Assembly (NCBI GenBank): GCA_964512235.1
Contig: CAZEGD010000002.1
Location: 40,768-104,767, forward strand
Reading direction: 5' to 3'
Origin: an uncultured archaeon
Lineage (GTDB): Archaea > Aenigmatarchaeota > Aenigmatarchaeia > CG10238-14 > SCSR01
DNA: 64,000 bases
Shown here piece after piece: positions 6,469-36,509 of the stretch. Under the pieces are notes generated by a model, which saw only the letters and a program-made list of their open reading frames with translations, did no database searches and was not told where the DNA came from. The position numbers and the translations under genes are program-made. The first letter of the stretch is position 1. Every line of letters starts with the position of its first letter.

Positions 6469-6514
6469 TTTGAGCCTTTTTCTATCAAGTGATTCAATCG
6501 ATTGAATCGCTTTC

Positions 6515-7249
6515 CTATGGACTTTTGTACCTTACCCAACCCTTTCCGTCCCGTCGGAATCTCTCTATCTCGTTGGTCCTCTTCATAGTGTTCGATAGAA
6601 GTCCGCGCAACGCAGAGGTAGTAATGCTTAGTCGTGTAGCCATATCCTTGTAGCTCAGTTCGCCTACAGATCTGACGACTGAAACTAGCTCCTTCATCTT
6701 TGTAGAGAGTGGTATTTGGCTTCTCATTGTCTCTATTTCCCTTAGAATATCTGTCTTTATTGGTTCAGGAGCTTTGACTGCAACCCTCTGGAGCCTATCG
6801 AGAACCGATTGAATCGATTTGAATCGGTTCTGAACGCTTACATCATGTCTTTCCACTGCTTTTCTGATATTTTCAAGATTCTCAATCAATTCTGGTGTCT
6901 GATCGTCAAATTCGGTCTTAAACCAATCTTTTGTTACCATCTGTCTTTCTATACGTGAAAGAGAGCGCTCAACCTCCTTGATACTCTTTCCGGTGTAGCC
7001 AGCAGCGAGTCCAAGTTGAAAAGAATCCTTTTCGAGAGCCGTTACTTCTGGTTTCGGGGTGGGAGCTATTCGATTCTTGGTAGTTCCCCGTCCCGTTACA
7101 ATTAACGCCTCCCGTTCAGGAAGTTCTCTATACTTCTGCCTAGCGATTGAATCGATTGAATCGCTTTCAATCGATGATTCAATCGATTGAATCGATTGAA
7201 TCGCTTTTTTCCGTCCCATTAGCCGCTTCAATCGATTAAAAATACCCAT
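6515..7249 (-). CDS. Hypothetical protein with N-terminal IQSIESSIDS repeats and a C-terminal winged helix
   Basis: Coding sequence contains GATTGAATCG-type DNA repeats; C-terminal H-T-H plus wing (SYKDMATRLSITTSALRGLL...GKGWVRYK). Confidence 0.6.
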   Translation of the reverse strand: MGIFNRLKRLMGRKKAIQSIQSIESSIESDSIDSIARQKYRELPEREALIVTGRGTTKNRIAPTPKPEVTALEKDSFQLGLAAGYTGKSIKEVERSLSRIERQMVTKDWFKTEFDDQTPELIENLENIRKAVERHDVSVQNRFKSIQSVLDRLQRVAVKAPEPIKTDILREIETMRSQIPLSTKMKELVSVVRSVGELSYKDMATRLSITTSALRGLLSNTMKRTNEIERFRRDGKGWVRYKSP

Positions 7250-7494: not shown

Positions 7495-7580
7495 TCATCT
7501 TTTATATACTATAATATATAGTTATATCATATTATGTTATCACAATTATTTTATAACATATATTATACAGTATATCTTGT
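7495..7580. other. Extreme AT-rich tract (DUE-like) between the iteron array and the dispersed repeats
   Basis: ttttatatactataatatatagttatatcatattatgttatcacaattattttataacatatattatacag. Confidence 0.4.
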
Positions 7581-7586
7581 AGATGG

Positions 7587-7626
7587 TGTAAACTCTCACT
7601 TATGCACCATATGTGAACCGATTGGG
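7587..7626 (+). repeat. Dispersed repeat copy A (TGTAAACTCTCAC-N3-TGCACCA...GATTGG)
   Basis: Shares TGTAAACTCTCACnnnTGCnCCA..TG..GATTGG with copy C at 8333. Confidence 0.5.
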
Positions 7627-7810
7627 TAGCCCATTTGGGAGAGTCTCTTGTCGAAGAGAGCGTAAAGTATATATTGTATATATGCATAATGCACAATATT
7701 CAACATTAGAGAGTGGAAATAGACATTCTTTTATAAGAGTATGTTAAATTATATTATAGAACATATGCTTTTATACGAAAATCGTAGCAAAGCTGTGTAA
7801 AATGTTGGGG

Positions 7811-7860
7811 AACTCTCACAAGTGCACAGTCTATACATAGCACTGGCGCACTTACCTCTT
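7811..7860 (+). repeat. Dispersed repeat copy B (AACTCTCACaagTGCACAG...TGGCGCACTTaCCTCTT)
   Basis: ~50-bp element alignable with copy D; lies at the 3' end of minus-strand gene 7852..8034. Confidence 0.5.
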
Positions 7861-8034
7861 TAAAGCTTTTCTTATCTTCTTTAGACATGCTGGACAGACG
7901 ACTAAAAAGCGGTATTTGCGGTAATCTGATCTTAATCTGTAAGATTTGCCCTTTTTGAGGCAGAAATCACATGTCCCACGTGGATGACCTGCTTCAATCC
8001 TTATCTTTTTAACTCCTGAGACTCCTATGGCCAT
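7852..8034 (-). CDS. Lys/Arg-rich zinc-ribbon protein (60 aa)
   Basis: CDFCLKK...VVCPACLKKIRKALKR; flanked on both sides by repeat copies B and D. Confidence 0.5.
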   Translation of the reverse strand: MAIGVSGVKKIRIEAGHPRGTCDFCLKKGKSYRLRSDYRKYRFLVVCPACLKKIRKALKR

Positions 8035-8060
8035 ATTATTATATTGTTTTCCAGGTGTTT

Positions 8061-8110
8061 AAGTCTCACATCTGCTCAGTCCCTAGGCAGAAGTGGCGCA
8101 CTTCTCTTAG
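8061..8110 (+). repeat. Dispersed repeat copy D (AAGTCTCACatcTGCTCAG...TGGCGCACTTCTCTTAG)
   Basis: Aligns with copy B over ~50 bp; ~25 bp upstream of the start codon of 7852..8034. Confidence 0.5.
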
Positions 8111-8268
8111 TAAAATGGGTTGAAAAATTGTCTCAAAATGAGACAAAAATTATACAACTTTCCATAAATCAATAGTTTTACTCTTTCTAGAAGTCTTTGG
8201 TCAATGGGCTTGATTATTCGTTCTCTCTCTTATGTATAAAAAGTATAAAATAGAGTATATTTCCTCGT

Positions 8269-8934
8269 ATGGTAGGGTCATTCTCTATATATAGAAAGTA
8301 TAAATATATGGAAAAGAATAGAATAATTAGAAAATATGTAAACTCTCACAAATGCGCCAGTGATTGGATGAAGTTAAGAGATGGGATTGAGCTTGCTGAA
8401 AGGTACGGGGCATCAGAAAAAAGGATTGAATTTGTAAGTAATTTATTCACACAGGCTGATATTAGGTACGAATATTTTTCTGAGAGTGCTATAGTTGCCG
8501 GTTTTATAAATAATAATGCCATAGTTGTGAAGGAAGAGATTGCACCTGACTTGGAAAGTATTAAACTTGATAAAAGTGAGTTGAAATTTGTCAGACAACC
8601 ACAAAAAGACGATAAAATCGCATCAATTAGGTTACTTAAAACTCTAGGATTTGAATTCGCTGGCACAGAAATAAGATACAATGGTGGAACAGTAGATGTT
8701 TTGGGTTGTGGTAAAGGCAAAATTATTGCTGTAGAGTGCGGTCCTTGTAGAATTAACAAGGCTGTAGACTATTTAGAGAAGGAAAATACTGAATTGTGGC
8801 TGATTCCTGTTGACTTCTGGCAGAATAAGAAGTTTTTCATAGTTTCACGTGGTCCAAACTGGAAGGATTTTCATGATTTTCACAAAAAATACCAAATTAA
8901 AGTGCTAAAAACTGGAAAGGTGGTGGGAATATGA
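8269..8934 (+). CDS. Hypothetical protein, possibly restriction-endonuclease-like (PD-(D/E)xK) fold; true start may be internal (ATG 8308 or 8367)
   Basis: TVDVLGCGKGKIIAVECG resembles a D...E.K nuclease core; repeat copy C lies inside the 5' end. Confidence 0.35.
   Translation: MVGSFSIYRKYKYMEKNRIIRKYVNSHKCASDWMKLRDGIELAERYGASEKRIEFVSNLFTQADIRYEYFSESAIVAGFINNNAIVVKEEIAPDLESIKLDKSELKFVRQPQKDDKIASIRLLKTLGFEFAGTEIRYNGGTVDVLGCGKGKIIAVECGPCRINKAVDYLEKENTELWLIPVDFWQNKKFFIVSRGPNWKDFHDFHKKYQIKVLKTGKVVGI
8333..8364 (+). repeat. Dispersed repeat copy C (TGTAAACTCTCACaaaTGCGCCAGTGATTGG)
   Basis: See copy A. Confidence 0.5.
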
Positions 8935-9278
8935 AAACGACATTGCACTTACTGGTGGGTAATCATCCAAAGACGGGTAGACTGAAACAAAGAATAACCA
9001 AAATCATCAGGATTTTGAAAGAGAATAAGGGTAAAATCGAGGCAAGCGAGTTGGAAAAGAAGTTAGGGATATCACGAACAGACGATCCAAGTCTCTTCTA
9101 CAAGCCGTTAAAGTCCATGAGGGACTGGGATTTGGTACAGTCGCACCGTACAGTGGAGTTTGATAGCAAAGGTAAGAAGCATTTTAAGACTACATACGAG
9201 CTAACACCAAGCTTCTTTTACCGCTACATAGAAAAAACGCTGTTGGAAAAGGTCAGAACGGAGTTAGAAATGATCTAA
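8931..9278 (+). CDS. Winged-helix DNA-binding protein
   Basis: RILKENKGKIEASELEKKLGISRT ... wing; start overlaps the previous gene by 4 nt. Confidence 0.5.
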   Translation: MKTTLHLLVGNHPKTGRLKQRITKIIRILKENKGKIEASELEKKLGISRTDDPSLFYKPLKSMRDWDLVQSHRTVEFDSKGKKHFKTTYELTPSFFYRYIEKTLLEKVRTELEMI

Positions 9279-9414
9279 TACATCTTACGAAAAGATGAAG
9301 TCCTCTACATGCGTTTTCAGCCATACAAACTATAAAAGGAGTGTAAACTTAAGTTTCTTCTGTATACAAGTTCTTCACTCTCACATCTAGTCAGGATTCG
9401 TACCAATCATTTAA

Positions 9415-9708
9415 TCAAGGAGAACTGACGAGTTGTGGAGTTTTCTCAAGTTTTTTCTTGTAGTTTTCCACACGTTTCTTTAACTCTGGGTCCTTTTCAA
9501 TCAATATGTTATAAAGGATTACAGCATCTTCTGAAGTCTTGAAAAGTTGGCCTTCGACTTCATTTTTAACATTTAGATAAAGATCCACTGCCTCGTCAAA
9601 TGGCAATACCGCGACCAGTTCTGGAGCGCCAGGGTTCTTCTTTCTGGCATACACATGCAACTTATCGCCAACGAACTTAGTCCAAACATCTAGGTTTGGG
9701 TTCTCCAT
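9415..9708 (-). CDS. Hypothetical protein (97 aa)
   Basis: ORF only; repeat copy E (9342..9395) lies just 3' of it. Confidence 0.4.
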   Translation of the reverse strand: MENPNLDVWTKFVGDKLHVYARKKNPGAPELVAVLPFDEAVDLYLNVKNEVEGQLFKTSEDAVILYNILIEKDPELKKRVENYKKKLEKTPQLVSSP

Positions 9709-9768
9709 AAAAACTTCTGCTGATTATGTTAATTTAAGCATTGTAGTGTTGCTTAACCAGTATCGGGT

Positions 9769-10065
9769 TTAGAGATTTTCTCTATGGAGCGATTCTCTGA
9801 CTTTTTCCAAATTTTTTTCAGCGTCTTCGTATGGATTTCTTTTCATAATCTTTACAGCTTCTTTCCCTTTCTGAGTTATGTGCAAATCGCCGTCTGTACC
9901 TATCTCAACATAAGGACCTAAAAGAAGTTCATCTAAAGCCTTTTTCACCCTAGTAGGATTATTCGGAAATTCGTTGTATATCTTATCTCTTGGCATAGAT
10001 TCTTTCTCACATATTAAACGTAGGATATATCCGATGGGGCTATTTGTCATTTTTCCACCAAACAA
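9769..10065 (-). CDS. Winged-helix transcription regulator-like protein
   Basis: PIGYILRLICEKESMPRDKIYNEF...LGPYVEI..DGDLHITQKG pattern. Confidence 0.45.
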   Translation of the reverse strand: MFGGKMTNSPIGYILRLICEKESMPRDKIYNEFPNNPTRVKKALDELLLGPYVEIGTDGDLHITQKGKEAVKIMKRNPYEDAEKNLEKVRESLHRENL

Positions 10066-10115
10066 ATTATAAAAGCGAGAGATTTAAATCTCACCCTACA
10101 TATACTTCAGAACTC

Positions 10116-10607
10116 TCACTTTTCCATCAGAAGCCCGTCTACATAGTCTATTTGGTCTTCCGGTTTTTCGTGTGATCTGACTAATTCTTCATAAATTTGT
10201 CTGACCCGATGCACATTGTCGCTGTCTATCCAGTATATACGTCCTGCGCGCTCTTTTTCAACTTCTCCGTATCCAGAAGTGATAATACCCCGATCTCCTA
10301 AAACATCTAATGATGACGATATTTCATTTCTTTCAATTAAACCCTCGAAATAGTCTACAAGTCTTGTAAATGTAGCGGGTATTTTAGTCATGTTGTATTT
10401 GTAAATCTGTACGGCTATCTTCAGATAATTATCTAGACTTTCCATAGCATTTGGGTCTGCTTTTTTGAATTCTTTGTTCTGATTCTTTAATGGGAGTGGA
10501 ACTTCAGGTATGTCTGACCCAATTAAGAAAAGTTCTTTTGGTTTCGGAAGCAAAATATCACCTAGAATAAATATAGAGTTTAAACTTTTATATTCGGTAT
10601 ACGCCAC
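10116..10607 (-). CDS. Hypothetical protein (163 aa)
   Basis: ORF; its stop codon is embedded in repeat copy F (10111..10130). Confidence 0.45.
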   Translation of the reverse strand: MAYTEYKSLNSIFILGDILLPKPKELFLIGSDIPEVPLPLKNQNKEFKKADPNAMESLDNYLKIAVQIYKYNMTKIPATFTRLVDYFEGLIERNEISSSLDVLGDRGIITSGYGEVEKERAGRIYWIDSDNVHRVRQIYEELVRSHEKPEDQIDYVDGLLMEK

Positions 10608-10623
10608 ATTGGCTTATTCTAGT

Positions 10624-10920
10624 CTATCCTGCATACACTTCTTTACTCTCACTCTTCACTTCTTTTGGCAGGAAGAAAAGGCCACCATGCAATAGAATTG
10701 CATAAAGGATTATCCTCATGAAGTCTGGAGATTCCATCTTTTTTATCTTTTTTAGGTAGGTTGATACTGTATTCCTGGATATGCCAAGCATTTCCGCTAT
10801 TTCTAGGTTGTTGTAGCCTCTTGCGTTTAATATTATTATCTCTTTTAGCATTATTGGTTTGAAGCCGTATCTCTTTGCTAGTGTGTTGAATAGCTGGTTT
10901 AGGTATCTTTCTATCTTCAT
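10624..10920 (-). CDS. HTH_10 (bacterio-opsin-activator-type) helix-turn-helix protein with a C-terminal TM segment
   Basis: GYNNLEIAEMLGISRNTVSTYLKKI HTH; hydrophobic segment IILYAILLHGGLFFL. Confidence 0.5.
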   Translation of the reverse strand: MKIERYLNQLFNTLAKRYGFKPIMLKEIIILNARGYNNLEIAEMLGISRNTVSTYLKKIKKMESPDFMRIILYAILLHGGLFFLPKEVKSESKEVYAG

Positions 10921-10964
10921 GTTAAATATTGTGCATTTTGCATATATTTAAACTATTTACATAA

Positions 10965-11177
10965 TTAAAAAATAAATACATGAAGGAAAAGAAAAATAAA
11001 GATCAGTCCTATCAAAATAAGTTCAATCAATACTAGTTTCGTTAATTCTTGTATTTCCATAGTAATCTGGGGAATACCAAAAATTGCTCCGATGATTAAG
11101 AAAAATACAGTTAAGGCTCCGAAGAAAATCGCAATTTTCTGTTCTGTAGTATATTTCTCTTTTTTATTAATTTTCAT
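10965..11177 (-). CDS. Small membrane protein (70 aa)
   Basis: Two hydrophobic helices; start overlaps the upstream gene. Confidence 0.4.
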   Translation of the reverse strand: MKINKKEKYTTEQKIAIFFGALTVFFLIIGAIFGIPQITMEIQELTKLVLIELILIGLIFIFLFLHVFIF

Positions 11178-11380
11178 CGACTCAACCTCGATATTATGCC
11201 AATAATTATCGAAATTATCATCGCTACTATTACGAAGAAGAATAGTAATGAATAACCTGGTGCCAGTTCTGTTAATATTGGACCTAAAGCATAGGTAATA
11301 ATGATAATTATAAAAATTGTAAGTAGAGCTTCAAAAACAAATGAAATTATATTTTGTCCTTTATTCTTCATATTTACCAT
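11174..11380 (-). CDS. Small membrane protein (68 aa)
   Basis: Two hydrophobic helices; 4-nt overlap with the downstream gene. Confidence 0.4.
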   Translation of the reverse strand: MVNMKNKGQNIISFVFEALLTIFIIIIITYALGPILTELAPGYSLLFFFVIVAMIISIIIGIISRLSR

Positions 11381-11464
11381 CTTACTTCACAAAAATAAAT
11401 AGTTTGATAATTCCTCAATCTTTATTAATCTTCTGATTAAATTCTGTAATTAGATAGATTTTTC

Positions 11465-12433
11465 TTAACTAGAAAATGTTACATCAAAAACTTTCACTTC
11501 TATTAGAGGATTTGCAGCTGCAGCATATTCAAGATAAGTATCTTTCTTACCAACAACAATTATACCTCTAACTCCTTTACCCTCTTTCTCGGCCATATGT
11601 TTTTTTATCCAACCCATATATCTCGATATCTGGTCTATTATTGAAGAACCAGCTTTTGATTTTTTCAATTCAACAACAACATAATCTGCATTACTACATA
11701 ATAAATCGAGTCTTCCAACATCGGTAACTTTCTGCCTAGCGACTACTTTAAGATGTGGGTCTAACTTATGGATGTTTTGCTCTATGATGGTCTCTAAATT
11801 CCTTTCAAGGATTTCTGTGTAGCCTATCTGCCTACTAACTTTTTCTTTTATTATTTCTTTTTTATCGTCTTCTTTGATATCCGACTTTATCTCAACCCAC
11901 CTTCCCTCTTCGAGGTAATTCAAGAATTCGTCTATCGACCCAAATTTTTCTACCAAAGGCGTTAATCTATCTCCGCTTATTTGCATAAAGCCTTGTGGAG
12001 TATAGTTAGGTGCATAACCTACAACTTTATTGAAATCTGAAACAGGAACCGATAGTTCTCTTAGATTATCAAGAAGGTACATATATTCCCAAGTTTGTCC
12101 AGAGGAGTCCGTACTCCATAAAAATTTAGCTAATTCAAGATTATGTATTTTGTGTACGACGGTAGCAATATATTCGTAATTCCCCTTTCTATAAATCAGA
12201 ATTTTATCATTGACTTCTAGGTTGCGCCAATTTCGTATGTTTCCACTTCCAGGTGTGGCTCCCCATGCCCTTATTTTTCTATCGCGGAAATAATCTTCCA
12301 CATCTTTCAAATCATTCTCTGATAGAAATTGTTTTATTTTATTATCTAAAGTGAATCCTTCTTCTATTGTATCAATATAATGTCTGTAAGCTTCGTCTCT
12401 ACTTGCTGTAAAAACGAATAATTTGGCGGTCAT
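11465..12433 (-). CDS. Nuclease with a NucS/EndoMS-type C-terminal RecB-like PD-(D/E)xK domain fused to a ~200-aa N-terminal PUA/EVE-like beta-barrel region
   Basis: C-terminal GRLDLLCSNADYVVVELKKSKAGSSIIDQISRYMGWIKKHM...GVRGIIVVG closely parallels the NucS C-terminal domain (IDLL..D..VVIELKRG.A...VGQLLRY.GWV...VRGILVA); the N-terminus is not NucS-like. Confidence 0.6.
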   Translation of the reverse strand: MTAKLFVFTASRDEAYRHYIDTIEEGFTLDNKIKQFLSENDLKDVEDYFRDRKIRAWGATPGSGNIRNWRNLEVNDKILIYRKGNYEYIATVVHKIHNLELAKFLWSTDSSGQTWEYMYLLDNLRELSVPVSDFNKVVGYAPNYTPQGFMQISGDRLTPLVEKFGSIDEFLNYLEEGRWVEIKSDIKEDDKKEIIKEKVSRQIGYTEILERNLETIIEQNIHKLDPHLKVVARQKVTDVGRLDLLCSNADYVVVELKKSKAGSSIIDQISRYMGWIKKHMAEKEGKGVRGIIVVGKKDTYLEYAAAANPLIEVKVFDVTFSS

Positions 12434-12458
12434 AGTGTACTACTAGTTAATTGAACTC

Positions 12459-12492
12459 TCAATTTTATATTATATTCCTTTTTCTAGAGCAC
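12459..12492 (-). promoter_or_regulatory. Promoter module copy 1 (TGCTCTAGAAAAAGGAATATAA + TATA box), ~35 nt upstream of the 11465..12433 start
   Basis: Minus-strand reading tgctctagaaaaaggaatataatataaaatt; near-identical to the copy at 14623..14652. Confidence 0.55.
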
Positions 12493-12507
12493 ACTTCCGG
12501 CGAGAAT

Positions 12508-13920
12508 CTAAACTCTATAACCTCTTCCTTCTTTTACCATCTTCGTCTTCGGTGACAATCTCCTAAACATGCCCGGATGCTCAGTATGCACAGGAAATAG
12601 CATCTTCGGCTTGATCCTCTCTATCAATTCTTTCAAATCCGTACCTGACATGTGCCCGCTACAGTGGCACTGCACCTGACGCAGATCAAAATGCTCCATC
12701 CAGTTCTTCATCCTCCCAGCAGACATCTCCATCTCCTCGTTGAACGGCTCGGAAAGAGAGTGTATATACAGGCTATCTTTCGGCTTCAAATCCACGAGCA
12801 TATTGAAGTACCAGAAATTCAGCACGGTCATGTAATCATTCGGCTTCTTCTGCATGTCTTCTGCTGTGATAATGTTCGGATAATCCATCCTTTCCCTTAT
12901 GTACTTGTCCGAATAGTCCTTGTCATCATAAGTGCCTGTCATCCGCTTCGGCTTAAGCAGATAGATACCTTTACCAGTACTATCTGGCACATTCAGCGTC
13001 TTATCCATATGATAGCGCTCCAGAAAGCACGCGTGCTTGAAGCTGATCACAAGCTTCTTCTCTACCTCTTGTGAAATGCGATAGAAAGTGCGGAATCGGT
13101 CCACATCCTTGAAATTGAAGTCTACTATGGACAGTCCCCTGTTCTTCAGTATCTCCCTCTTCGAGTCAGCATACACCTTCGCCTCTGATTCATCGGTCTT
13201 TTTGATGTCAATTCTGGTGCCTTCAGTTATCATCGCTATCGGTTTCACTTCCTCCGCTCTCTTCATAAAGTCCATAGTCATCTCCGAATGAGCACCATGC
13301 ATCCGCATATCTCCAGTATAAACGACTGGACCTTTGCTTGTATGTATGATGAAACCGTACGCGCCAGGGACGCTGTGATCCACATGAATGGGTTCTATCT
13401 CCAATGACCCAATCTTGAACTTCTTGCCTGTCCTAAATGTATGAAAGGTGCGCTCTTCCGGAGGCTTCCTGTAGTCCGTGCGAAATAAAGGCCGCTTCTT
13501 GAAGTTCAGCACTTCATTCTCTATGCCCCTCTGGCTCTGCTCTTCCACTGCCTGCAATATGCGATGGCATGTCTCTCCGCAATATATCGGAATGTCCTTG
13601 TGCAAAAACGAAATATAGTTTGCATGGTCTGCATGCGCATGCGAGAGAACGACTCCGTCTATCTCCGGATCTTTCGGCTTACGTCCATAATGTTTGAGCA
13701 AATCATCGCGGTAGACACCTTCTATGTCTGGTATCAGTCCCATTGCAAGGAAGTCGCCTATGCCGTTTGCTGTTCTTGGCTTCAGGAACTCTTCGAAGAA
13801 TTGTGCACGCTTGCCAAAGCTCATTCCGAAATCTAAAAATATTTTGGTACCTTTATCTTCCAACAGTATCTTGTTACCGCCAATTTCCTTCACTCCGCCA
13901 TAGAAAGTTAGTTTGACCAT
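12508..13920 (-). CDS. rnj: Archaeal RNase J-like beta-CASP ribonuclease (metallo-beta-lactamase fold)
   Basis: HAHADH motif plus downstream D/H beta-lactamase motifs and a beta-CASP C-terminus; start chosen at MVKLTFYGG, while the ORF-track start is 13959. Confidence 0.8.
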   Translation of the reverse strand: MVKLTFYGGVKEIGGNKILLEDKGTKIFLDFGMSFGKRAQFFEEFLKPRTANGIGDFLAMGLIPDIEGVYRDDLLKHYGRKPKDPEIDGVVLSHAHADHANYISFLHKDIPIYCGETCHRILQAVEEQSQRGIENEVLNFKKRPLFRTDYRKPPEERTFHTFRTGKKFKIGSLEIEPIHVDHSVPGAYGFIIHTSKGPVVYTGDMRMHGAHSEMTMDFMKRAEEVKPIAMITEGTRIDIKKTDESEAKVYADSKREILKNRGLSIVDFNFKDVDRFRTFYRISQEVEKKLVISFKHACFLERYHMDKTLNVPDSTGKGIYLLKPKRMTGTYDDKDYSDKYIRERMDYPNIITAEDMQKKPNDYMTVLNFWYFNMLVDLKPKDSLYIHSLSEPFNEEMEMSAGRMKNWMEHFDLRQVQCHCSGHMSGTDLKELIERIKPKMLFPVHTEHPGMFRRLSPKTKMVKEGRGYRV

Positions 13921-13965
13921 ATTCTCAATTGATAATTGGTATGAAACAGATAAAAGCAATATTTT

Positions 13966-14589
13966 TCAACCATAGAAAGGATATCTTCTATGCATCATCC
14001 GCCTTAGATCAGCGTCAAGCTTTGCACTTAACTCACGTTGCTGCTTAGAGATAGATTCCAAGCCGCTAACAACATATGGGCCCTCTAGAATTGGTGGTTC
14101 TATTGCCGAAAGTTGTTGTGGCAATCGTCTGGTCGCTTTTAGTGTAGATTGCATAACCTTTTTCATAATAGCATTCACAGCTTGATTGGGTGTTTTTAAT
14201 CCTTGCTCAACTTCCGATTTCATCTCCATCGTAAACTCCATAACTTCTTTCATGTCAACATTTCTGAACCCATAAGGGATTTCTGCCCCGCGTCTAAACC
14301 CTTTTCCCACAGCTTGTGGCATCCCGGGCACCCTTGGGATTCTAATCCTTGGTGCTGATCTTTCAAAGTCAAAATCTTTTATCTCAATTCCTATAACAGT
14401 TGGTTTTGTTTTGTAGATTGTATCTTTCTTCAGTAGCCATGCAGCATCTGGTGAGTAGATTAAAGCATCGTAGAATCCGCCTGGGCTTCTGTAAGTTATA
14501 GCGCCCCATTTAAAATCTCTACCATGCGGTTTTTTGTTATACTTCTTCAGTATATCATCCCAAATTTCTTCTCCCGGCAACACGCCCAT
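13966..14589 (-). CDS. Hypothetical protein (207 aa), probably co-transcribed with RNase J
   Basis: ORF preceded by promoter module copy 2; no recognisable domain. Confidence 0.5.
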   Translation of the reverse strand: MGVLPGEEIWDDILKKYNKKPHGRDFKWGAITYRSPGGFYDALIYSPDAAWLLKKDTIYKTKPTVIGIEIKDFDFERSAPRIRIPRVPGMPQAVGKGFRRGAEIPYGFRNVDMKEVMEFTMEMKSEVEQGLKTPNQAVNAIMKKVMQSTLKATRRLPQQLSAIEPPILEGPYVVSGLESISKQQRELSAKLDADLRRMMHRRYPFYG

Positions 14590-14622
14590 AATATCTACCC
14601 CTACAAGTAGTAGATTATCTCT

Positions 14623-14652
14623 TAATTTTTATATTCCTTTTTCTAGAGCAGA
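14623..14652 (-). promoter_or_regulatory. Promoter module copy 2 (TGCTCTAGAAAAAGGAATATAAAAATT), ~35 nt upstream of the 13966..14589 start
   Basis: 21-nt exact identity (tatattcctttttctagagca) with copy 1, plus flanking similarity. Confidence 0.55.
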
Positions 14653-14720
14653 CTCCCACCAAGACTCTGTCGTTCTTGAGTAAAGATAAGAATTTATTTC
14701 TAATCGTCCAAGCATAGTCT

Positions 14721-15110
14721 ATGGGGAGTAAAACGCCTAGAGATATAATTATAGTATTAAAAAAAGGTAGGATGGTTCCTATACTTGAGAGCCTTGGTTG
14801 GGATCTTCTCCCACGTGGAGGTGAAAAACCAGACATCTTTGAAATAGCTGCTAGAAGAAATGCTCTAAAGGAAGTCTACAAAGAGTATGAACCTGTAATT
14901 GAAACCCTGCAGAAGTACGGACCCTCGACTCTGGAGCAGATTAGCGGATATACCGGAAGACCATATGGAGAAGATAAAGGATATTTAGAACTTTTGCTCA
15001 TGATTGATGTGGTGAAAAAAGAAGATGGAATATACAGATTAGCTGCAGATGTGAAAGAAGTATTATCGCTTTTTGATGTTGATGGTAGCTCCGTTATGAT
15101 ACTTCCCTAA
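14721..15110 (+). CDS. Hypothetical winged-helix protein (129 aa)
   Basis: LEQISGYTGRPYGEDKGYLELLLMIDVVKKEDGIYRL helix-wing pattern. Confidence 0.45.
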   Translation: MGSKTPRDIIIVLKKGRMVPILESLGWDLLPRGGEKPDIFEIAARRNALKEVYKEYEPVIETLQKYGPSTLEQISGYTGRPYGEDKGYLELLLMIDVVKKEDGIYRLAADVKEVLSLFDVDGSSVMILP

Positions 15111-15185: not shown

Positions 15186-16166
15186 TTATGGCAGATCCGG
15201 CAGCTTCTCGTCAATCTTCTCGAACCCCTCCTTGAATATGTCTATTATCCTCTCCTTCTCTTTCCTGAGCTTCCTGTTGTGCGACTCGAGGCAGATGCCT
15301 GCTAACATCAGTAGCCCACCACCCATGATTGTCTCAGGCATTATCTGCTCGCCTATCACCACTGACGCTAAGACTATAGACAATATCGGTGTTATCATTA
15401 TCGCTATCAATGACCCTGTCTCCGCTTCTATTCGCTTTAGTGCCAGATTGTAAAACAGGTGAGCAAGCGCTGTGGAGACAATTCCTAGAATGACTAGATA
15501 TACTATGCTGCTTGAGATTTCACCCAATCCATAGATGAATGGGAAGGGGGACAGTAGTATCGAAGCGAAGAGAAAGAACCAAACCACGGCTCCGATGCCG
15601 TGTGTCTTGCCCTCTTTCCTCATATTGACTATTAACAACCCGTAAAAGACTGCACCCGTCAGAGCTAACATATTTCCCAAGTTGCTTTCTCCAAACTGGA
15701 ATGGGTTTATTATCAACAACCCAGCAGCTGCAATGATTAGAGTTATTATCTTTGTCAAAGTGATTTTTTCTTTTAATAAGAAATATCCAAAGACTAAAAC
15801 AAAAAATGGGTAACTATAATTCAGCAAGACTGCGTTCTGTATCGATGTGAATATGTTTGCGGCTGTATATAGTGACAGCGATATAGCGTAAATGGAACCG
15901 ATAAGGAAAAAGTCTTTTGCATCCTTCTTTGTAATTTTATACCACTTCTTGTCAAGAAATGGCACTACCGCCAGCAGAAAGAGGAGGCCGAAGAAGATTC
16001 TAAAAAAGTTTAGAGTCATTATTGGAATTGTGTCTCCAATCAGTTTGACGAGCACACCTATAGTACCCAGGCAAAGAGCAGCCAATACCATGTAAGTGTA
16101 GTTCAAACGCCTCATAGATAGAATATTTGATTGGTAGAATAAAACTCTCCAAACAAGTCTTTTCAT
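15186..16166 (-). CDS. EamA/DMT-family transporter (10 TM); true start possibly the internal Met at 16115
   Basis: Two EamA-like repeats of 5 TM each; hydropathy profile. Confidence 0.75.
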   Translation of the reverse strand: MKRLVWRVLFYQSNILSMRRLNYTYMVLAALCLGTIGVLVKLIGDTIPIMTLNFFRIFFGLLFLLAVVPFLDKKWYKITKKDAKDFFLIGSIYAISLSLYTAANIFTSIQNAVLLNYSYPFFVLVFGYFLLKEKITLTKIITLIIAAAGLLIINPFQFGESNLGNMLALTGAVFYGLLIVNMRKEGKTHGIGAVVWFFLFASILLSPFPFIYGLGEISSSIVYLVILGIVSTALAHLFYNLALKRIEAETGSLIAIMITPILSIVLASVVIGEQIMPETIMGGGLLMLAGICLESHNRKLRKEKERIIDIFKEGFEKIDEKLPDLP

Positions 16167-21400: not shown

Positions 21401-22249
21401 ATGACTTATGAAGAGAAGCCAGAAGATGATGGTATGGTAGAAGCGATGAAAAAGTTAGATACGGAGCTGAAGCTGCGCGGGTTTTCACCGCAGACAGCGA
21501 AGATGTACAACTTCTACAATGAAAAGTTTTTGAAATTTGCAAACAAGCAACCCATGCAAATAACGGAAGATGATGTGAAGTCGTTCATTGCAGACAGGCT
21601 ATCGAATGGCATATCCCCAAAGTCAGTCGTGCTCATGAGGTCTGCGCTGAAGTTCTACTACGATGAGGTATTGAACAGGGGTGTTGTGAACATAAAGACA
21701 CCGAAAGTATCGCGCAAACTGCCCATAGTGCTGACGCATGAAGAAGTGAAACTTTTGATAGATTCTGTGAAAAGAAAGAAGCACAAGCTCATGGTCATGG
21801 TGCTGTATTCTTCCGGCCTGCGCGTGAGCGAGCTTGTGAACTTGAAGATTGGAGATTTGGAGATTGACCAAAAGATTGGTTGGGTGCGCAGCGGCAAGGG
21901 TGCAAAGGATAGGATGTTCATAATTTCCGAGAAGATTGTCAACAGGTTGAAGAGTTATACAAAGGGTAGAGGCAAGGATGAATATGTCTTTGCCGGTCAT
22001 AATGGTAGACTGACTACGCGCAGCGTGCAGAAAGCAATAGCAAGCACGGCAAAGCGCGCGGGTATAGACAAAAGAGTGACACCGCATGTACTTAGGCATA
22101 CCTTTGCCACGCATATGCTAGAGTCTGGTGTGGATTTGAGAAAGATACAGATGCTTCTGGGGCATTCGCAGCTGAGTACGACTCAACTGTACTTGAGCGT
22201 ATCGAACAAGGAATTGAAAATGGTAAAGAGTCCTCTGGATGAATTATAG
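21401..22249 (+). CDS. xerA: Tyrosine recombinase XerA (XerC/D family)
   Basis: R..HxxR..Y catalytic set: LRVSEL, HVLRHTFATHML, GHSQLSTTQLYLSV. Confidence 0.88.
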   Translation: MTYEEKPEDDGMVEAMKKLDTELKLRGFSPQTAKMYNFYNEKFLKFANKQPMQITEDDVKSFIADRLSNGISPKSVVLMRSALKFYYDEVLNRGVVNIKTPKVSRKLPIVLTHEEVKLLIDSVKRKKHKLMVMVLYSSGLRVSELVNLKIGDLEIDQKIGWVRSGKGAKDRMFIISEKIVNRLKSYTKGRGKDEYVFAGHNGRLTTRSVQKAIASTAKRAGIDKRVTPHVLRHTFATHMLESGVDLRKIQMLLGHSQLSTTQLYLSVSNKELKMVKSPLDEL

Positions 22250-29582: not shown

Positions 29583-29709
29583 GCGGGGGTCGCCTAGTCT
29601 GGTCAATGGCGCGAGGCTTAAGTTTGACTACTTAAGATCTGATAAAATATGATGCAATAAGAAACCTCGTGGCTTAGTGCCTTCGTGGGTTCAAATCCCA
29701 CTCCCCGCA
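29583..29709 (+). tRNA. tRNA-Leu (anticodon UAA) with a ~41-nt intron after position 37 (approx. 29623..29663)
   Basis: Acceptor stem GCGGGGG/TCCCCGC; long variable arm GGCttagtGCC; anticodon loop CTTAAG|intron|A; intron contains ACTTAAG complementary to the loop (bulge-helix-bulge context). Confidence 0.85.
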
Positions 29710-35867: not shown

Positions 35868-36509
35868 ATGAGAGATTTGATCGAACTTGCAAAGAAGATA
35901 AAGAATAAGGAATTGAGGGAAAAGGTAATCGATACTCTAAAGAATCCTAAGCTGTCAAGCAAGGATTTCAAAAAGTACCCAAGTGTGAAGATGGTGGATG
36001 CTCGTACGCCATTTACTGTGGGTGGTGGAATTTCGGTGGAGCGTGATGTTCTGAACCATACCATAGCTGTGGTGGATGCCTGTGAAAGAGTTGCCGATGT
36101 TTTTGAAAAGAGGTATGGCATGACTTTAAACAGGGACTATTTGCTCGCTGGTTCGATATTGCATGATATTATGAAGGTTTTTGAATGGAAGGTTGGAGCT
36201 CAAGGTGCTGAGCATAGCGGCATATTGCTTGATCATAGTATGCTGGCTGTGGCCGAGCTCTATCATCGGAATTTCCCAGAGCAGGTCATACATATAATTG
36301 CAAGCCATTTTGGAGAGAGTGGACCGACTCCACCAAGAAGCTTTGAGGCTTTGATTCTACACCATGTAGACACGCTGCTGTCGCTAGCGGAGTACCACAT
36401 GTATGCAGCCGCACAGCCTGCACAAATGCCGATTGTCCTTTTAGACGAGGAAATGATAAAAAAGATAAGTGGTGAATTACCTGAATCAGAGAAAGGAAAG
36501 TCTAAATGA
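35868..36509 (+). CDS. HD-superfamily phosphohydrolase
   Basis: H...HD...H...D pattern (SILHDIMK, HSGILLDHS). Confidence 0.65.
   Translation: MRDLIELAKKIKNKELREKVIDTLKNPKLSSKDFKKYPSVKMVDARTPFTVGGGISVERDVLNHTIAVVDACERVADVFEKRYGMTLNRDYLLAGSILHDIMKVFEWKVGAQGAEHSGILLDHSMLAVAELYHRNFPEQVIHIIASHFGESGPTPPRSFEALILHHVDTLLSLAEYHMYAAAQPAQMPIVLLDEEMIKKISGELPESEKGKSK

What the first reader, a model, noticed from the sequence alone, without database searches (positions are those of the whole stretch)
12455..14660. Two genes driven by near-identical promoter modules containing a TCTAGA palindrome
A 21-nt exact match (TATATTCCTTTTTCTAGAGCA on the plus strand, ~40 nt with flanking similarity) occurs at 12459..12492 and 14623..14652. 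On the minus strand each reads GCTCTAGAAAAAGG + AATATAAAA (BRE/TATA), placed ~35 nt upstream of the ATG of the NucS-like nuclease and of the 207-aa unknown respectively. The 207-aa gene is followed by RNase J. This implies the two units share one regulator, or that the promoter was recently duplicated or recombined.
Basis: seen in the sequence. Interest (0 to 1): 0.55.

Follow-up and report, generated by a model that had tools for sequence, protein, structure and literature searches.

The report
Duplicated promoter of a mobile nuclease gene
Two genes 2.2 kb apart in an uncultured archaeon carry copies of one ~70-base upstream control region that normally travels with a mobile restriction-type nuclease gene, so this is a copied promoter and not evidence of a shared TCTAGA-binding regulator.

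Summary
The repeat is real. A 22-nt exact match (minus strand TGCTCTAGAAAAAGGAATATAA) lies at 12470-12491 and 14629-14650, inside about 70 nt of homology. It is the best of 3,570 upstream-region pairs in the window, and there are only two copies.

The new result concerns copy 1. It is the native 5' region of the 322-aa nuclease gene. Homologues of that gene (84-87% amino-acid identity) on three unrelated contigs carry the same upstream region, 56-78% identical. For the nearest one (L137) this exceeds fourfold-degenerate sites (78% against 51%). Their neighbouring genes all differ.

The 322-aa protein is not a true NucS. It has a YTH-like reader domain (as in the T. gammatolerans McrB N-domain) joined to a NucS_C nuclease domain, so it looks like a type IV restriction enzyme.

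The block best conserved across homologues is TATA-like, ATAATATAAAA(G)TTAAGAG, 36-40 nt before the ATG. TCTAGA is absent from the homologues and occurs at chance frequency in the window.

Copy 2 sits before an uncharacterised 207-aa gene. The pattern is mosaic: the upstream flank of copy 1 groups with its homologue, while the core groups with copy 2 (P=0.015). That suggests recombination or gene conversion.

Promoter activity is inferred, not shown. This is an ordinary kind of event, and the evidence documents it well.

The parts
12438..12510 (-). Module copy 1 (W1). It fills the whole 74-nt gap between the RNase J stop codon (12508-12510) and the ATG of the 322-aa nuclease gene (12433). It is the native 5' control region of the nuclease cassette.
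   Evidence: Alignments. nhmmer E=9e-17. Homologous to the upstream regions of L137, L130 and L136.
12470..12491 (-). 22-nt exact core in W1: TGCTCTAGAAAAAGGAATATAA. It comprises an upstream 7 nt that overlaps TCTAGA, a purine-rich BRE-like GAAAAAGG, and the start of the TATA-like element.
   Evidence: Identical to the W2 core, but only 73% identical to L137 and 68% to L130.
12463..12473 (-). TATA-like element ATAATATAAAA of W1, at -40 to -30 from the ATG. It is the start of ATAATATAAAA(G)TTAAGAG, the block best conserved across all nuclease-gene homologues.
   Evidence: Alignment A2. The geometry is read from the sequence. Promoter function is inferred.
14591..14671 (-). Module copy 2 (W2). 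It lies in the 131-nt divergent gap between the 207-aa gene (ATG 14589, minus strand) and the 129-aa gene (ATG 14721, plus strand).
   Evidence: nhmmer E=2e-12. Present at 100% identity in contigs L001/L140, L141 and L142.
14629..14650 (-). 22-nt exact core in W2.
14626..14635 (-). TATA-like AATATAAAAA of W2, at -46 to -37 from the ATG. W2 lacks 4-5 nt here relative to all the nuclease-gene copies.
14597..14601 (-). GGGGT, a possible Shine-Dalgarno-like sequence. It lies within an 8-nt stretch present only in W2, at -12 to -8 from the ATG of the 207-aa gene.
   Evidence: Alignment. The ribosome-binding role is inferred and not tested.
11465..12433 (-). 322-aa gene encoding a YTH-like reader domain (residues ~1-200) joined to a NucS_C-type PD-(D/E)XK nuclease domain (~209-315). 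It is a probable modification-dependent (type IV) restriction-like nuclease and appears horizontally mobile.
   Evidence: Pfam NucS_C E=7e-11. It falls far below the NucS equivalog cut-offs. PADLOC PDC-S02 and PDC-S11 match. AF2 model pLDDT 90.6. Foldseek hits 6P0F, the TgMcrB N-domain, at E=2.5e-8, and EndoMS/NucS. Homologues reach 81-87% identity in other contexts and 52-56% in CPR bacteria.
11421..11455 (-). Conserved 3' flank of the nuclease gene, ATCTAATTACAGAATTTAATCAGAAGATTAATAAA, including the hairpin TTAATC-AGAA-GATTAA. It is shared with L137 and is the probable 3' end of the transferred unit.
12508..13920 (-). Archaeal RNase J-type beta-CASP ribonuclease, 470 aa from the ATG at 13920. 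It lies between the two module copies.
   Evidence: Pfam Lactamase_B_2 and RMMBL. TIGR00649 RNase J family, below its cut-off. 65-76% identical homologues in 80 MAG loci, with no shared neighbours.
13949..13956 (-). CTTTTATC, a TATA-like element at -36 to -29 from the RNase J ATG. It suggests RNase J has its own promoter, at the distance usual in this genome.
   Evidence: Sequence. The genome's promoter words peak at -32 to -28 from the ATG. Function is inferred.
13966..14589 (-). 207-aa gene (u207). It is a member of an uncharacterised family of ~165-210-aa proteins.
   Evidence: One homologue at 38% identity in the word-indexed search. 115 representative clusters in the exhaustive profile search. 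No Pfam match. AF2 pLDDT 86.9 with no PDB or BFVD match.
14721..15110 (+). 129-aa orphan gene, divergent from u207. It shares the intergenic region that holds W2.

Best explanation
The two sequences are paralogous copies of one ~70-nt 5' control region. That region belongs natively to a horizontally mobile single-gene cassette encoding a restriction-type nuclease, which has a YTH-like reader domain and a NucS_C PD-(D/E)XK nuclease domain.

Shown:
- The same upstream region accompanies close homologues of the nuclease gene on three other contigs whose neighbouring genes are all different.
- For the nearest homologue (L137) it is better conserved than fourfold-degenerate coding sites.
- Its best conserved block is an A/T-rich TATA-like element, ATAATATAAAA(G)TTAAGAG, preceded by a purine-rich stretch and lying 36-40 nt before the ATG.

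Inferred:
- The region is an archaeal BRE/TATA promoter plus a short leader, and it lets the nuclease gene be expressed wherever it lands.
- In this genome a second copy came to lie in front of an unrelated 207-aa gene, 2,159 bp upstream on the same strand, with RNase J in between. It now most likely drives that gene.
- An 8-nt insertion in the second copy supplies a GGGGT ribosome-binding-like site for a leadered mRNA.
- The 22-nt identity is best explained by a short recombination or gene-conversion tract between the two in-genome copies. Less likely, it reflects host-specific selection on the BRE/TATA-proximal part.
- TCTAGA is an incidental feature of this lineage's version of the sequence, not a conserved operator.
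For: - The repeat is real and exceptional: only 2 copies, the top pair of 3,570 upstream-region pairs, with flanks similar beyond the core.
- Close full-length homologues of the 322-aa protein exist at 81-87% identity. The 70-80 nt upstream of those on L137, L130 and L136 align with W1 at 78%, 74% and 56%. nhmmer gives E from 1e-12 to 1e-17. Their neighbours differ: a 199-aa gene, a Cas4-like gene with Vsr, Dcm and HATPase genes, and ParA.
- W1 against L137 is 78% identical upstream but only 51% at fourfold-degenerate sites. For L130 the figures are 74% and 62%.
- A conserved 3' flank is shared by W1 and L137.
- The conserved TATA-like block lies 36-40 nt before the ATG. That is close to the -28 to -32 peak of promoter words in this genome.
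- Mosaic pattern: in the upstream 15 nt, W1-L137 is 14/15 while W1-W2 is 9/15. In the core, W1-W2 is 100% while W1-L137 is 73%. The runs test gives P=0.015. A 21-22-nt perfect run given the 14 differences has P=0.046.
- The module does not accompany u207's only close homologue. u207-family genes are not found near RNase J in 80 relatives.
- There is no stable or shared RNA fold and no Rfam hit.
Against: - No transcription start data exist, so promoter activity, leader lengths and the role of GGGGT are all inferred.
- Only three homologous upstream regions were available. Four other close homologues (L131, L134, L138, L139; 81-82% identity) have a different upstream region, so the module is not universal for the gene.
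- For L136 the upstream identity (56%) is no higher than the fourfold-site identity (61%), so the conservation argument rests mainly on L137 and L130.
- The mosaic and run-length statistics rest on about 15 informative sites (P of 0.015 to 0.05).
- The W1/W2 upstream-flank homology is marginal (p=0.05). W2 may therefore be a shorter copy that starts at the core.
- The TATA-like words differ from the host's usual TTTAAAT type.
- The rest of the genome could not be searched, so further copies, and hence a regulon, cannot be excluded.
- The RNase J/W1 junction is seen only in the window's own contig. JGI contig L128 starts 2 nt inside the core.
Confidence: 0.6

Rival explanations
1. Shared regulon. 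The 22-nt core holds an operator, with TCTAGA as dyad half-sites overlapping BRE/TATA. One transcription factor binds it and co-regulates the nuclease gene and the 207-aa gene (with or without RNase J). Selection for that site keeps the core identical.
For: - The core is perfectly conserved while the flanks have diverged (P=0.046).
- The core lies exactly over and just upstream of the BRE/TATA-like part, where archaeal regulators commonly act. This last point is general knowledge and was not tested here.
- Several small HTH proteins are encoded nearby, for example 10624-10920.
- W1 and W2 share core states that differ from those of the homologues. Adaptation to a host-specific factor could explain this.
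Against: - TCTAGA is not conserved in the homologous promoters of L137, L130 or L136.
- TCTAGA is at chance frequency in the window. A 6-bp palindrome somewhere within a 22-mer is expected about one time in four by chance.
- No symmetry extends beyond the 6 bp.
- There are only two sites in 64 kb. The core 18- to 21-mers had no non-chance match in the genome, metagenome or viral collections, and the 5-sequence profile found no further copy in the fetched loci.
- Homology extends about 25-30 nt on the downstream side of the core, which an operator does not require.
Confidence: 0.17
2. Recombination scars. The two direct repeats are attL/attR-like or target-duplication sites flanking a 2.16-kb inserted or excisable segment (u207 plus RNase J). 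Alternatively, they are docking sequences by which cassettes with a common 5' module exchange cargo genes.
For: - The repeats are direct and bracket a discrete two-gene segment.
- RNase J is out of its usual neighbourhood. In 43 relatives it lies next to an HD-domain gene that sits 22 kb away here.
- GC content shifts at copy 1.
- JGI contig L128 ends 2 nt inside the core, while L142 from the same sample crosses W2. This is compatible with population heterogeneity at this junction.
- A weak possible second copy exists in L137 at 300-341.
Against: - There is no recombinase or transposase between or beside the repeats. The only tyrosine recombinase, at 21401-22249, is XerA-like and 7 kb away.
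- The flanks of the repeats have diverged, unlike fresh att sites or target-site duplications.
- The module has no terminal inverted repeats.
- The segment carries a core housekeeping gene.
- The second copy in L137 is not significant: E=0.04 to 0.36, and a chance hit in coding sequence scores better.
- Copy 1 is fully explained as the nuclease gene's own upstream region.
Confidence: 0.1
3. Artefact or chance. The match is either a chance low-complexity A/T-rich coincidence between two promoters, or a product of metagenome misassembly at a shared k-mer.
For: - The 18-mer GCTCTAGAAAAAGGAATA occurs 45 times by chance in public metagenomes, mostly as coding sequence for ALEKGI.
- The RNase J/W1 junction is supported only by the window contig, and L128 breaks inside the core.
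Against: - 0.01 matches are expected in the window, and no shuffle reached 2.
- The flanks are similar but not identical. A chimera joined at the core would not give that result.
- W1's upstream flank matches L137's nuclease-gene upstream at 14/15, so it belongs with the nuclease gene.
- W2 is reproduced at 100% identity in three other contigs.
Confidence: 0.03
4. Transcribed RNA element. The module encodes a structured 5' UTR, a small RNA or a terminator, not a promoter.
For: - Copy 1 follows the RNase J stop codon directly, where a 3' UTR or terminator could lie.
- Conservation extends downstream of the TATA-like box to within 10-20 nt of the ATG.
Against: - The predicted folds are weak (z from -0.4 to -1.5) and differ between the copies on both strands.
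- There is no Rfam family hit.
- There is no oligo-T run on the coding strand.
- Copy 2 has no upstream co-directional gene to terminate.
Confidence: 0.03

Closest known systems
Archaeal BRE/TATA core promoter with a short or absent leader
   Same: It has an A/T-rich TATA-like octamer preceded by a purine-rich stretch. The distance to the ATG is 36-46 nt, which fits a start site 0-16 nt before the ATG if TATA is centred about 26-28 nt upstream of the start (the TATA position is as stated in PMC8553660). For the nearest homologue the element is better conserved than neutral sites.
   Different: The TATA words (ATAATATAAAA, AATATAAAAA) are not the host's prevailing TTTAAAT type. The start site was not mapped. 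A further ~30 nt upstream of BRE are also conserved between W1 and L137, with no known role.
Self-contained mobile defence genes (single-gene type IV restriction enzymes in defence islands) that carry their own expression signals
   Same: The nuclease gene, its ~75-nt 5' region and, in L137, a ~35-nt 3' flank occur together in unrelated genomic contexts. In L130 the context includes Dcm, Vsr and Cas4-like genes. Homologues at 52-56% identity occur in CPR bacteria. The domain architecture is a modified-base reader plus a nuclease.
   Different: No mobility mechanism was identified: no integrase, no inverted repeats and no clear target duplication. Defence activity is untested. Four other close homologues have a different upstream region.
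Promoter duplication or capture, with concerted evolution (gene conversion) of dispersed short repeats
   Same: One promoter-bearing segment occurs in front of two unrelated genes. The mosaic identity pattern has an identical central tract and diverged flanks.
   Different: The tract is very short (22 nt) and the evidence is statistical (P of 0.015 to 0.05). The direction and mechanism of copying are unknown.
Archaeal regulon promoters that share a palindromic operator near BRE/TATA
   Same: A conserved sequence overlaps or abuts BRE/TATA in two promoters of one genome.
   Different: The palindrome is only 6 bp and occurs at chance frequency. It is not conserved in the homologous promoters, and only two sites are known.
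NucS/EndoMS mismatch endonuclease
   Same: The C-terminal PD-(D/E)XK domain matches Pfam NucS_C and the structures 2VLD and 5GKE.
   Different: The N-terminal domain is YTH-like, as in the T. gammatolerans McrB N-domain (6P0F), not the NucS N-domain. Scores are far below the NucS equivalog cut-offs: 45.7 bits against 216.

Membership tests
Archaeal BRE/TATA promoter | A/T-rich TATA box with a purine-rich BRE immediately upstream | tested here: met
   W1 reads GAAAAAGGA + ATAATATAAAA. W2 reads GAAAAAGG + AATATAAAAA. The TATA-like block is the best conserved part across five sequences.
Archaeal BRE/TATA promoter | Position compatible with a start site just upstream of the gene (TATA about 26-28 nt before the TSS) | tested here: met
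   TATA-like elements start at -40 (W1), -46 (W2), -36 (L137, L130) and -40 (L136) from the ATG. The genome's promoter words peak at -32 to -28.
Archaeal BRE/TATA promoter | Transcription actually starts downstream of the element | not testable with these tools
   No transcriptome or TSS data are available for this uncultured organism.
Archaeal BRE/TATA promoter | Purifying selection relative to neutral sites | tested here: met
   W1-L137 is 78% identical upstream against 51% at fourfold sites. W1-L130 is 74% against 62%. The sample is small, and L136 does not show the excess (56% against 61%).
Regulon operator (palindromic transcription-factor site shared by co-regulated promoters) | Dyad symmetry conserved in orthologous promoters | tested here: not met
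   TCTAGA is replaced by CTTGAA, TCTATA and CTCCAG in L137, L130 and L136. No symmetry extends beyond 6 bp.
Regulon operator (palindromic transcription-factor site shared by co-regulated promoters) | Site over-represented, or present at further promoters in the genome | tested here: inconclusive
   There are only 2 copies in 64 kb, and TCTAGA is at chance frequency.
Regulon operator (palindromic transcription-factor site shared by co-regulated promoters) | A cognate DNA-binding protein binds the site | not testable with these tools
   HTH genes are nearby, but binding cannot be computed.
att sites / integrated mobile element | Direct repeats flank a segment that carries or adjoins a recombinase | tested here: not met
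   The segment 12492-14628 holds only RNase J and u207. The nearest tyrosine recombinase, at 21401-22249, lies outside it and is XerA-like.
att sites / integrated mobile element | Repeats identical over their length, or overlapping a tRNA gene | tested here: not met
   Only 22 nt are identical and the flanks are 60-81% identical. No tRNA gene is present here.
NucS/EndoMS | C-terminal PD-(D/E)XK NucS_C domain | tested here: met
   PF01939 E=6.8e-11. Foldseek hits 5GKE and 2VLD.
NucS/EndoMS | NucS N-terminal domain and full-length equivalog score | tested here: not met
   NF003270 scores 45.7 bits against a cut-off of 216. The N-domain matches the YTH-like 6P0F instead.
Type IV (modification-dependent) restriction endonuclease | Modified-base reader domain fused to a nuclease domain | tested here: met
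   The AF2 model (pLDDT 90.6) matches the TgMcrB N-domain at E=2.5e-8 and TM 0.69. That domain is YTH-like and binds N6mA DNA according to PMC7544203. The same N-domain is fused to a McrB-like AAA domain and to HNH in other proteins.
Type IV (modification-dependent) restriction endonuclease | Cleaves modified DNA and protects against viruses | not testable with these tools
   This needs biochemistry. The only further support is PADLOC candidate families PDC-S02 and PDC-S11.
Archaeal RNase J | Metallo-beta-lactamase plus beta-CASP/RMMBL domains, about 450-470 aa | tested here: met
   Lactamase_B_2 and RMMBL match. The TIGR00649 family hit is below its cut-off. 80 homologous loci at 63-76% identity.

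The most novel reading that the evidence does not exclude
The ~70-nt module is more than a promoter. On this reading it is a portable homology block shared by small defence or accessory gene cassettes in this archaeal lineage. Recombination between copies, witnessed by the 22-nt identical tract and the mosaic flanks, would swap cargo genes behind a ready-made promoter. It could also loop out or amplify the intervening u207-RNase J segment. That would make it a recombinase-independent, promoter-mediated system for shuffling cassettes.
Probability: 0.08. Interest if true: 0.55.

Novelty: new member of a known kind. Interest (0 to 1): 0.25.

Why it matters
The result changes what the repeat means. 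It is not a clue to a regulon and its regulator. It is a footprint of how a mobile restriction-type gene brings its own promoter along, and of how such a promoter can be re-used by an unrelated gene.

In practical terms, conserved upstream blocks in uncultured archaea can be tested against homologues in other genomic contexts before an operator is inferred. The work also gives a candidate compact promoter (about 70 nt) for an uncultured archaeal lineage. It identifies the nuclease as a YTH-like-reader/NucS_C fusion and not a mismatch-repair NucS. If the mosaic pattern is confirmed with more sequences, it would be a small documented case of gene conversion between dispersed promoters in an archaeal genome.

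Tried and rejected
- **Genome-wide search for the core.** The 21-mer has 0 matches in genome contigs. The 18-mer has 45 matches in metagenome contigs, all single matches that do not extend past the 18-mer and mostly lie in coding sequence for ALEKGI. The 20-mer has 0 matches in viral contigs. A degenerate TATA-block pattern gave 32 viral hits, none extending beyond the pattern. The source genome is not in these collections, and its 169,862-bp NCBI contig could not be retrieved.
- **Coding relic.** The core reads ...ALEKGI* in one frame, and the gene upstream of u207's homologue in L002 ends in AELEKD*. Neither copy has an open frame there, and the L002 upstream region is not homologous to the module. 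Rejected.
- **Structured RNA.** The folds are weak and discordant, and there is no Rfam hit.
- **The module as RNase J's ancestral promoter or 3' region.** Nothing similar lies near RNase J in 80 relatives.
- **A conserved u207-RNase J operon.** No u207-family member is near RNase J in 80 relatives.
- **A second module copy in L137 (300-341).** E is 0.04 to 0.36, worse than a chance hit in coding sequence, so it is not accepted.
- **Reconstructing the ancestral arrangement from relatives.** EamA homologues at 67-69% identity have no shared neighbours.
- **GC anomaly as evidence that RNase J is foreign.** Its GC3 of 0.57 is the highest in the window but not an outlier (other genes reach about 0.5). 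The low-GC stretch is instead 8-12.4 kb, which includes the nuclease gene.
- **Function of u207.** No Pfam, PADLOC, PDB or BFVD match.
- **Sigma-70 and intrinsic-terminator scan.** Not informative for an archaeon.


Full report
**Observation.** Allowing 3 mismatches adds nothing, and shuffles predict 0.01 matches. The exact match is 22 nt. On the minus strand it reads TGCTCTAGAAAAAGGAATATAA, at 12470-12491 and 14629-14650. Ungapped similarity runs for 40 nt at 85%. Gapped alignment gives about 72 columns with 55 identities, 12438-12510 against 14591-14671.

As an empirical control I aligned the 80 nt upstream of 85 putative genes in the window, all against all. This pair scores 36, the next best of 3,570 pairs scores 21, and the mean is 9.2 with sd 2.3. 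With the core removed, the downstream flanks are still similar (p=0.005 against shuffles and against real upstream regions). The upstream flanks are marginal (p=0.05). A profile of the two copies finds no third copy in the 64 kb. The TCTAGA hexamer occurs 22 times in the window against 22.3 expected.

**Anatomy.** All the genes concerned are on the minus strand.
- Copy 1 (W1) fills the whole 74-nt gap between the stop codon of an RNase J-type gene (12508-13920; the real start is the ATG at 13920, giving 470 aa) and the ATG of a 322-aa gene (11465-12433).
- Copy 2 (W2) lies in the 131-nt divergent gap between a 207-aa gene (u207, 13966-14589) and a 129-aa orphan on the plus strand (14721-15110).
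- RNase J starts 45 nt after u207 and has its own TATA-like CTTTTATC at -36 to -29.
- The window is archaeal chromosome. It encodes GluRS, PolB, Hel308 and aEF1-alpha and an intron-containing tRNA.
- The exact lineage is unclear. The closest RNase J homologues (72-76% identity) are in MAGs labelled Thermoplasmatales, Bathyarchaeia and Aenigmatarchaeota.

**Is it an assembly artefact?** Three other contigs (L001/L140, L141, L142) are 100% identical to the window across W2. L128 is 100% identical from inside the W1 core through the nuclease gene. The flanks of the two copies are similar but not identical, which a chimera joined at the core would not produce. The RNase J/W1 junction itself is seen only in the window contig. 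L128 begins 2 nt inside the core, which I record as unexplained.

**Key result: the module belongs to the nuclease gene.** The 322-aa protein has close full-length homologues at 81-87% identity, and 52-56% homologues in CPR bacteria. I fetched the contigs of seven close homologues. In three of them (L137, L130, L136) the 70-80 nt upstream of the gene align with W1 at 78%, 74% and 56% identity. nhmmer gives E from 1e-12 to 1e-17.

The neighbouring genes are all different. L137 has a 199-aa gene. L130 has a Cas4-like gene together with Vsr, Dcm and a HATPase gene. L136 has ParA. The window has RNase J. W1 and L137 also share a 35-nt block just after the stop codon, at 11421-11455.

Between W1 and L137 the upstream region is 78% identical, while fourfold-degenerate sites of the gene are 51% identical. 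For L130 the figures are 74% and 62%. For L136 there is no such excess (56% against 61%). For its nearest homologues the 5' region is therefore conserved beyond neutral expectation, and it moves with the gene. Four other homologues (81-82% identity) have a different upstream region, so the association is not universal. The module profile finds nothing else in the roughly 1.5 Mb of fetched loci.

**What is conserved.** Across W1, W2, L137, L130 and L136 the best conserved block is ATAATATAAAA(G)TTAAGAG, preceded by a purine-rich stretch. It starts 36-40 nt before the ATG in the nuclease genes and 46 nt before it in W2. W2 has a 4-5-nt deletion in the A/T block. It also has an extra 8 nt near the ATG that contain GGGGT.

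In this genome the promoter words (TTTAAAT type) peak 28-32 nt before start codons, which implies mostly leaderless mRNAs. Taking TATA as centred about 26-28 nt before the start site (as stated in PMC8553660), the nuclease genes would have very short leaders. u207 would have a leader of about 16 nt with a possible ribosome-binding site. These steps are inferred, because no start-site data exist.

TCTAGA is not conserved in the homologues. L137 has GGCTTGAAAAAAGG, L130 has GGTCTATAGGAAAAC and L136 has CTCTCCAGAAAAG.

**Relationship between the two copies.** The pattern is mosaic.

| Segment | W1-L137 | W1-W2 |
|---|---|---|
| 15 nt upstream of the core | 14/15 | 9/15 |
| Core | 73% | 100% |
| Downstream of the core | 75% | 81% |

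Taking L137 as the third sequence, I classed each informative site by which two sequences agree. The two classes of site cluster along the sequence: 4 runs among 15 sites, P=0.015. A perfect run of 21-22 nt, given the 14 differences, has P=0.046.

The simplest reading is that W2 is an old paralogue of the nuclease-type 5' region, or a copy that begins at the core. Its central tract was later made identical to W1 by recombination or gene conversion. Host-specific selection on the BRE/TATA-proximal part is the alternative. The numbers are small, and I treat this as suggestive.

**The genes.**
- The 322-aa protein matches NucS only in its C-terminal PD-(D/E)XK domain and falls far below the NucS equivalog cut-offs.
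- A confident model (pLDDT 90.6) places its N-terminal 200 residues with the N-domain of Thermococcus gammatolerans McrB (6P0F, E=2.5e-8). That domain is YTH-like and prefers N6mA DNA according to PMC7544203.
- Relatives of this N-domain are fused to McrB-type AAA and HNH modules. The C-terminal domain matches PADLOC candidate defence families.
- The protein is therefore best described as a probable modification-dependent (type IV) restriction-like nuclease, and a mobile one.
- u207 belongs to an uncharacterised family of 115 representative clusters. It has no Pfam match. Its confident model has no PDB or BFVD match.
- Neither the module nor RNase J accompanies u207-family genes elsewhere.
- RNase J here is not in the neighbourhood seen in 43 relatives.

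**Alternatives.**
- A shared operator remains possible (0.17), but it lacks the expected support: conserved symmetry, extra sites and over-representation.
- An att-like or cargo-exchange role for the repeats (0.10) has circumstantial hints. These are the direct orientation, the displaced RNase J and the contig break in the core. There is no recombinase, and the repeats have diverged.
- Artefact or chance (0.03) and an RNA element (0.03) are poorly supported.

**Verdict.** The evidence points to a promoter that belongs to a mobile restriction-type gene and has been re-used in front of another gene. It does not point to a TCTAGA-based regulon. This is a modest, well-understood kind of event, so the interest score is low. 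The open points are transcription start sites, further copies in the rest of the genome, and whether recombination between the copies is ongoing.

Noticed in passing
window 7669-7706 (+) and 10919-10956 (-): A 38-nt inverted repeat, 84% complementary. One arm is the region directly upstream of the small HTH gene 10624-10920(-). The other arm has no ORF behind it. This may be a second pair of shared promoter-like modules in the low-GC stretch 7.5-12.4 kb.
   Followed up: partly
window 6480-6514 and 7134-7208: The perfect 18-nt palindrome GATTCAATCGATTGAATC occurs once just downstream of the 244-aa ORF 6515-7249(-) and about three times, overlapping, within its 5' end. It looks like operator sites (D4, I4-I6, I17).
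   Followed up: no
window 7587-7609, 7811-7830, 8337-8359, 10107-10129: A recurrent motif, AACTCTCAC..(A/T)TGCAC, lies in and around an apparently non-coding stretch at 7500-8250 (D8).
   Followed up: no
window 11421-11455 (-): A 35-nt block after the nuclease gene's stop codon is conserved with contig L137. It includes the hairpin TTAATC-AGAA-GATTAA and probably marks the 3' end of the transferred unit.
   Followed up: partly
window 13966-14589 (-): u207 looked like an orphan in the word-indexed search (2 hits). The exhaustive profile search shows it belongs to a family of 115 representative clusters. Its confident predicted structure (pLDDT 86.9) has no match in PDB or BFVD, so the fold may be undescribed.
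   Followed up: partly
window 12489 (start of JGI contig L128): A contig from JGI sample 3300031551 starts 2 nt inside the 22-nt core of copy 1. Another contig from the same sample (L142) crosses copy 2 unbroken. The cause could be a k-mer branch or real population heterogeneity at the RNase J/nuclease junction.
   Followed up: partly
window 12508-13920 vs 35868-36509: In 43 of the 80 related RNase J loci, a homologue of the HD-domain gene at window 35868-36509 lies within the fetched locus, just downstream of RNase J in the examples inspected. Here the two genes are 22 kb apart, so RNase J has been relocated in this lineage.
   Followed up: partly
window 8000-12400: A low-GC stretch (33-36% against 39.5% for the window) made of small orphan and HTH genes ends at copy 1. 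The nuclease gene has GC3 of 0.27 against 0.57 for RNase J. It is probably foreign DNA, but its boundaries were not determined.
   Followed up: partly
window 21401-22249 (+): A 282-aa tyrosine recombinase (Phage_integrase plus an N-terminal SAM-like domain). Its size and architecture resemble XerA. It is 44% identical to a fragment near the EamA homologue in L175.
   Followed up: no
window 29583-29709 (+): A tRNA gene detected only by Rfam (40 bits) and spanning 127 nt, which implies an intron. ARAGORN missed it.
   Followed up: no
window 15186-16166 (-): The EamA transporter ORF is probably annotated too long at its 5' end. Homologues are 278-292 aa and cover only 85-88% of the 326-aa ORF.
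   Followed up: no
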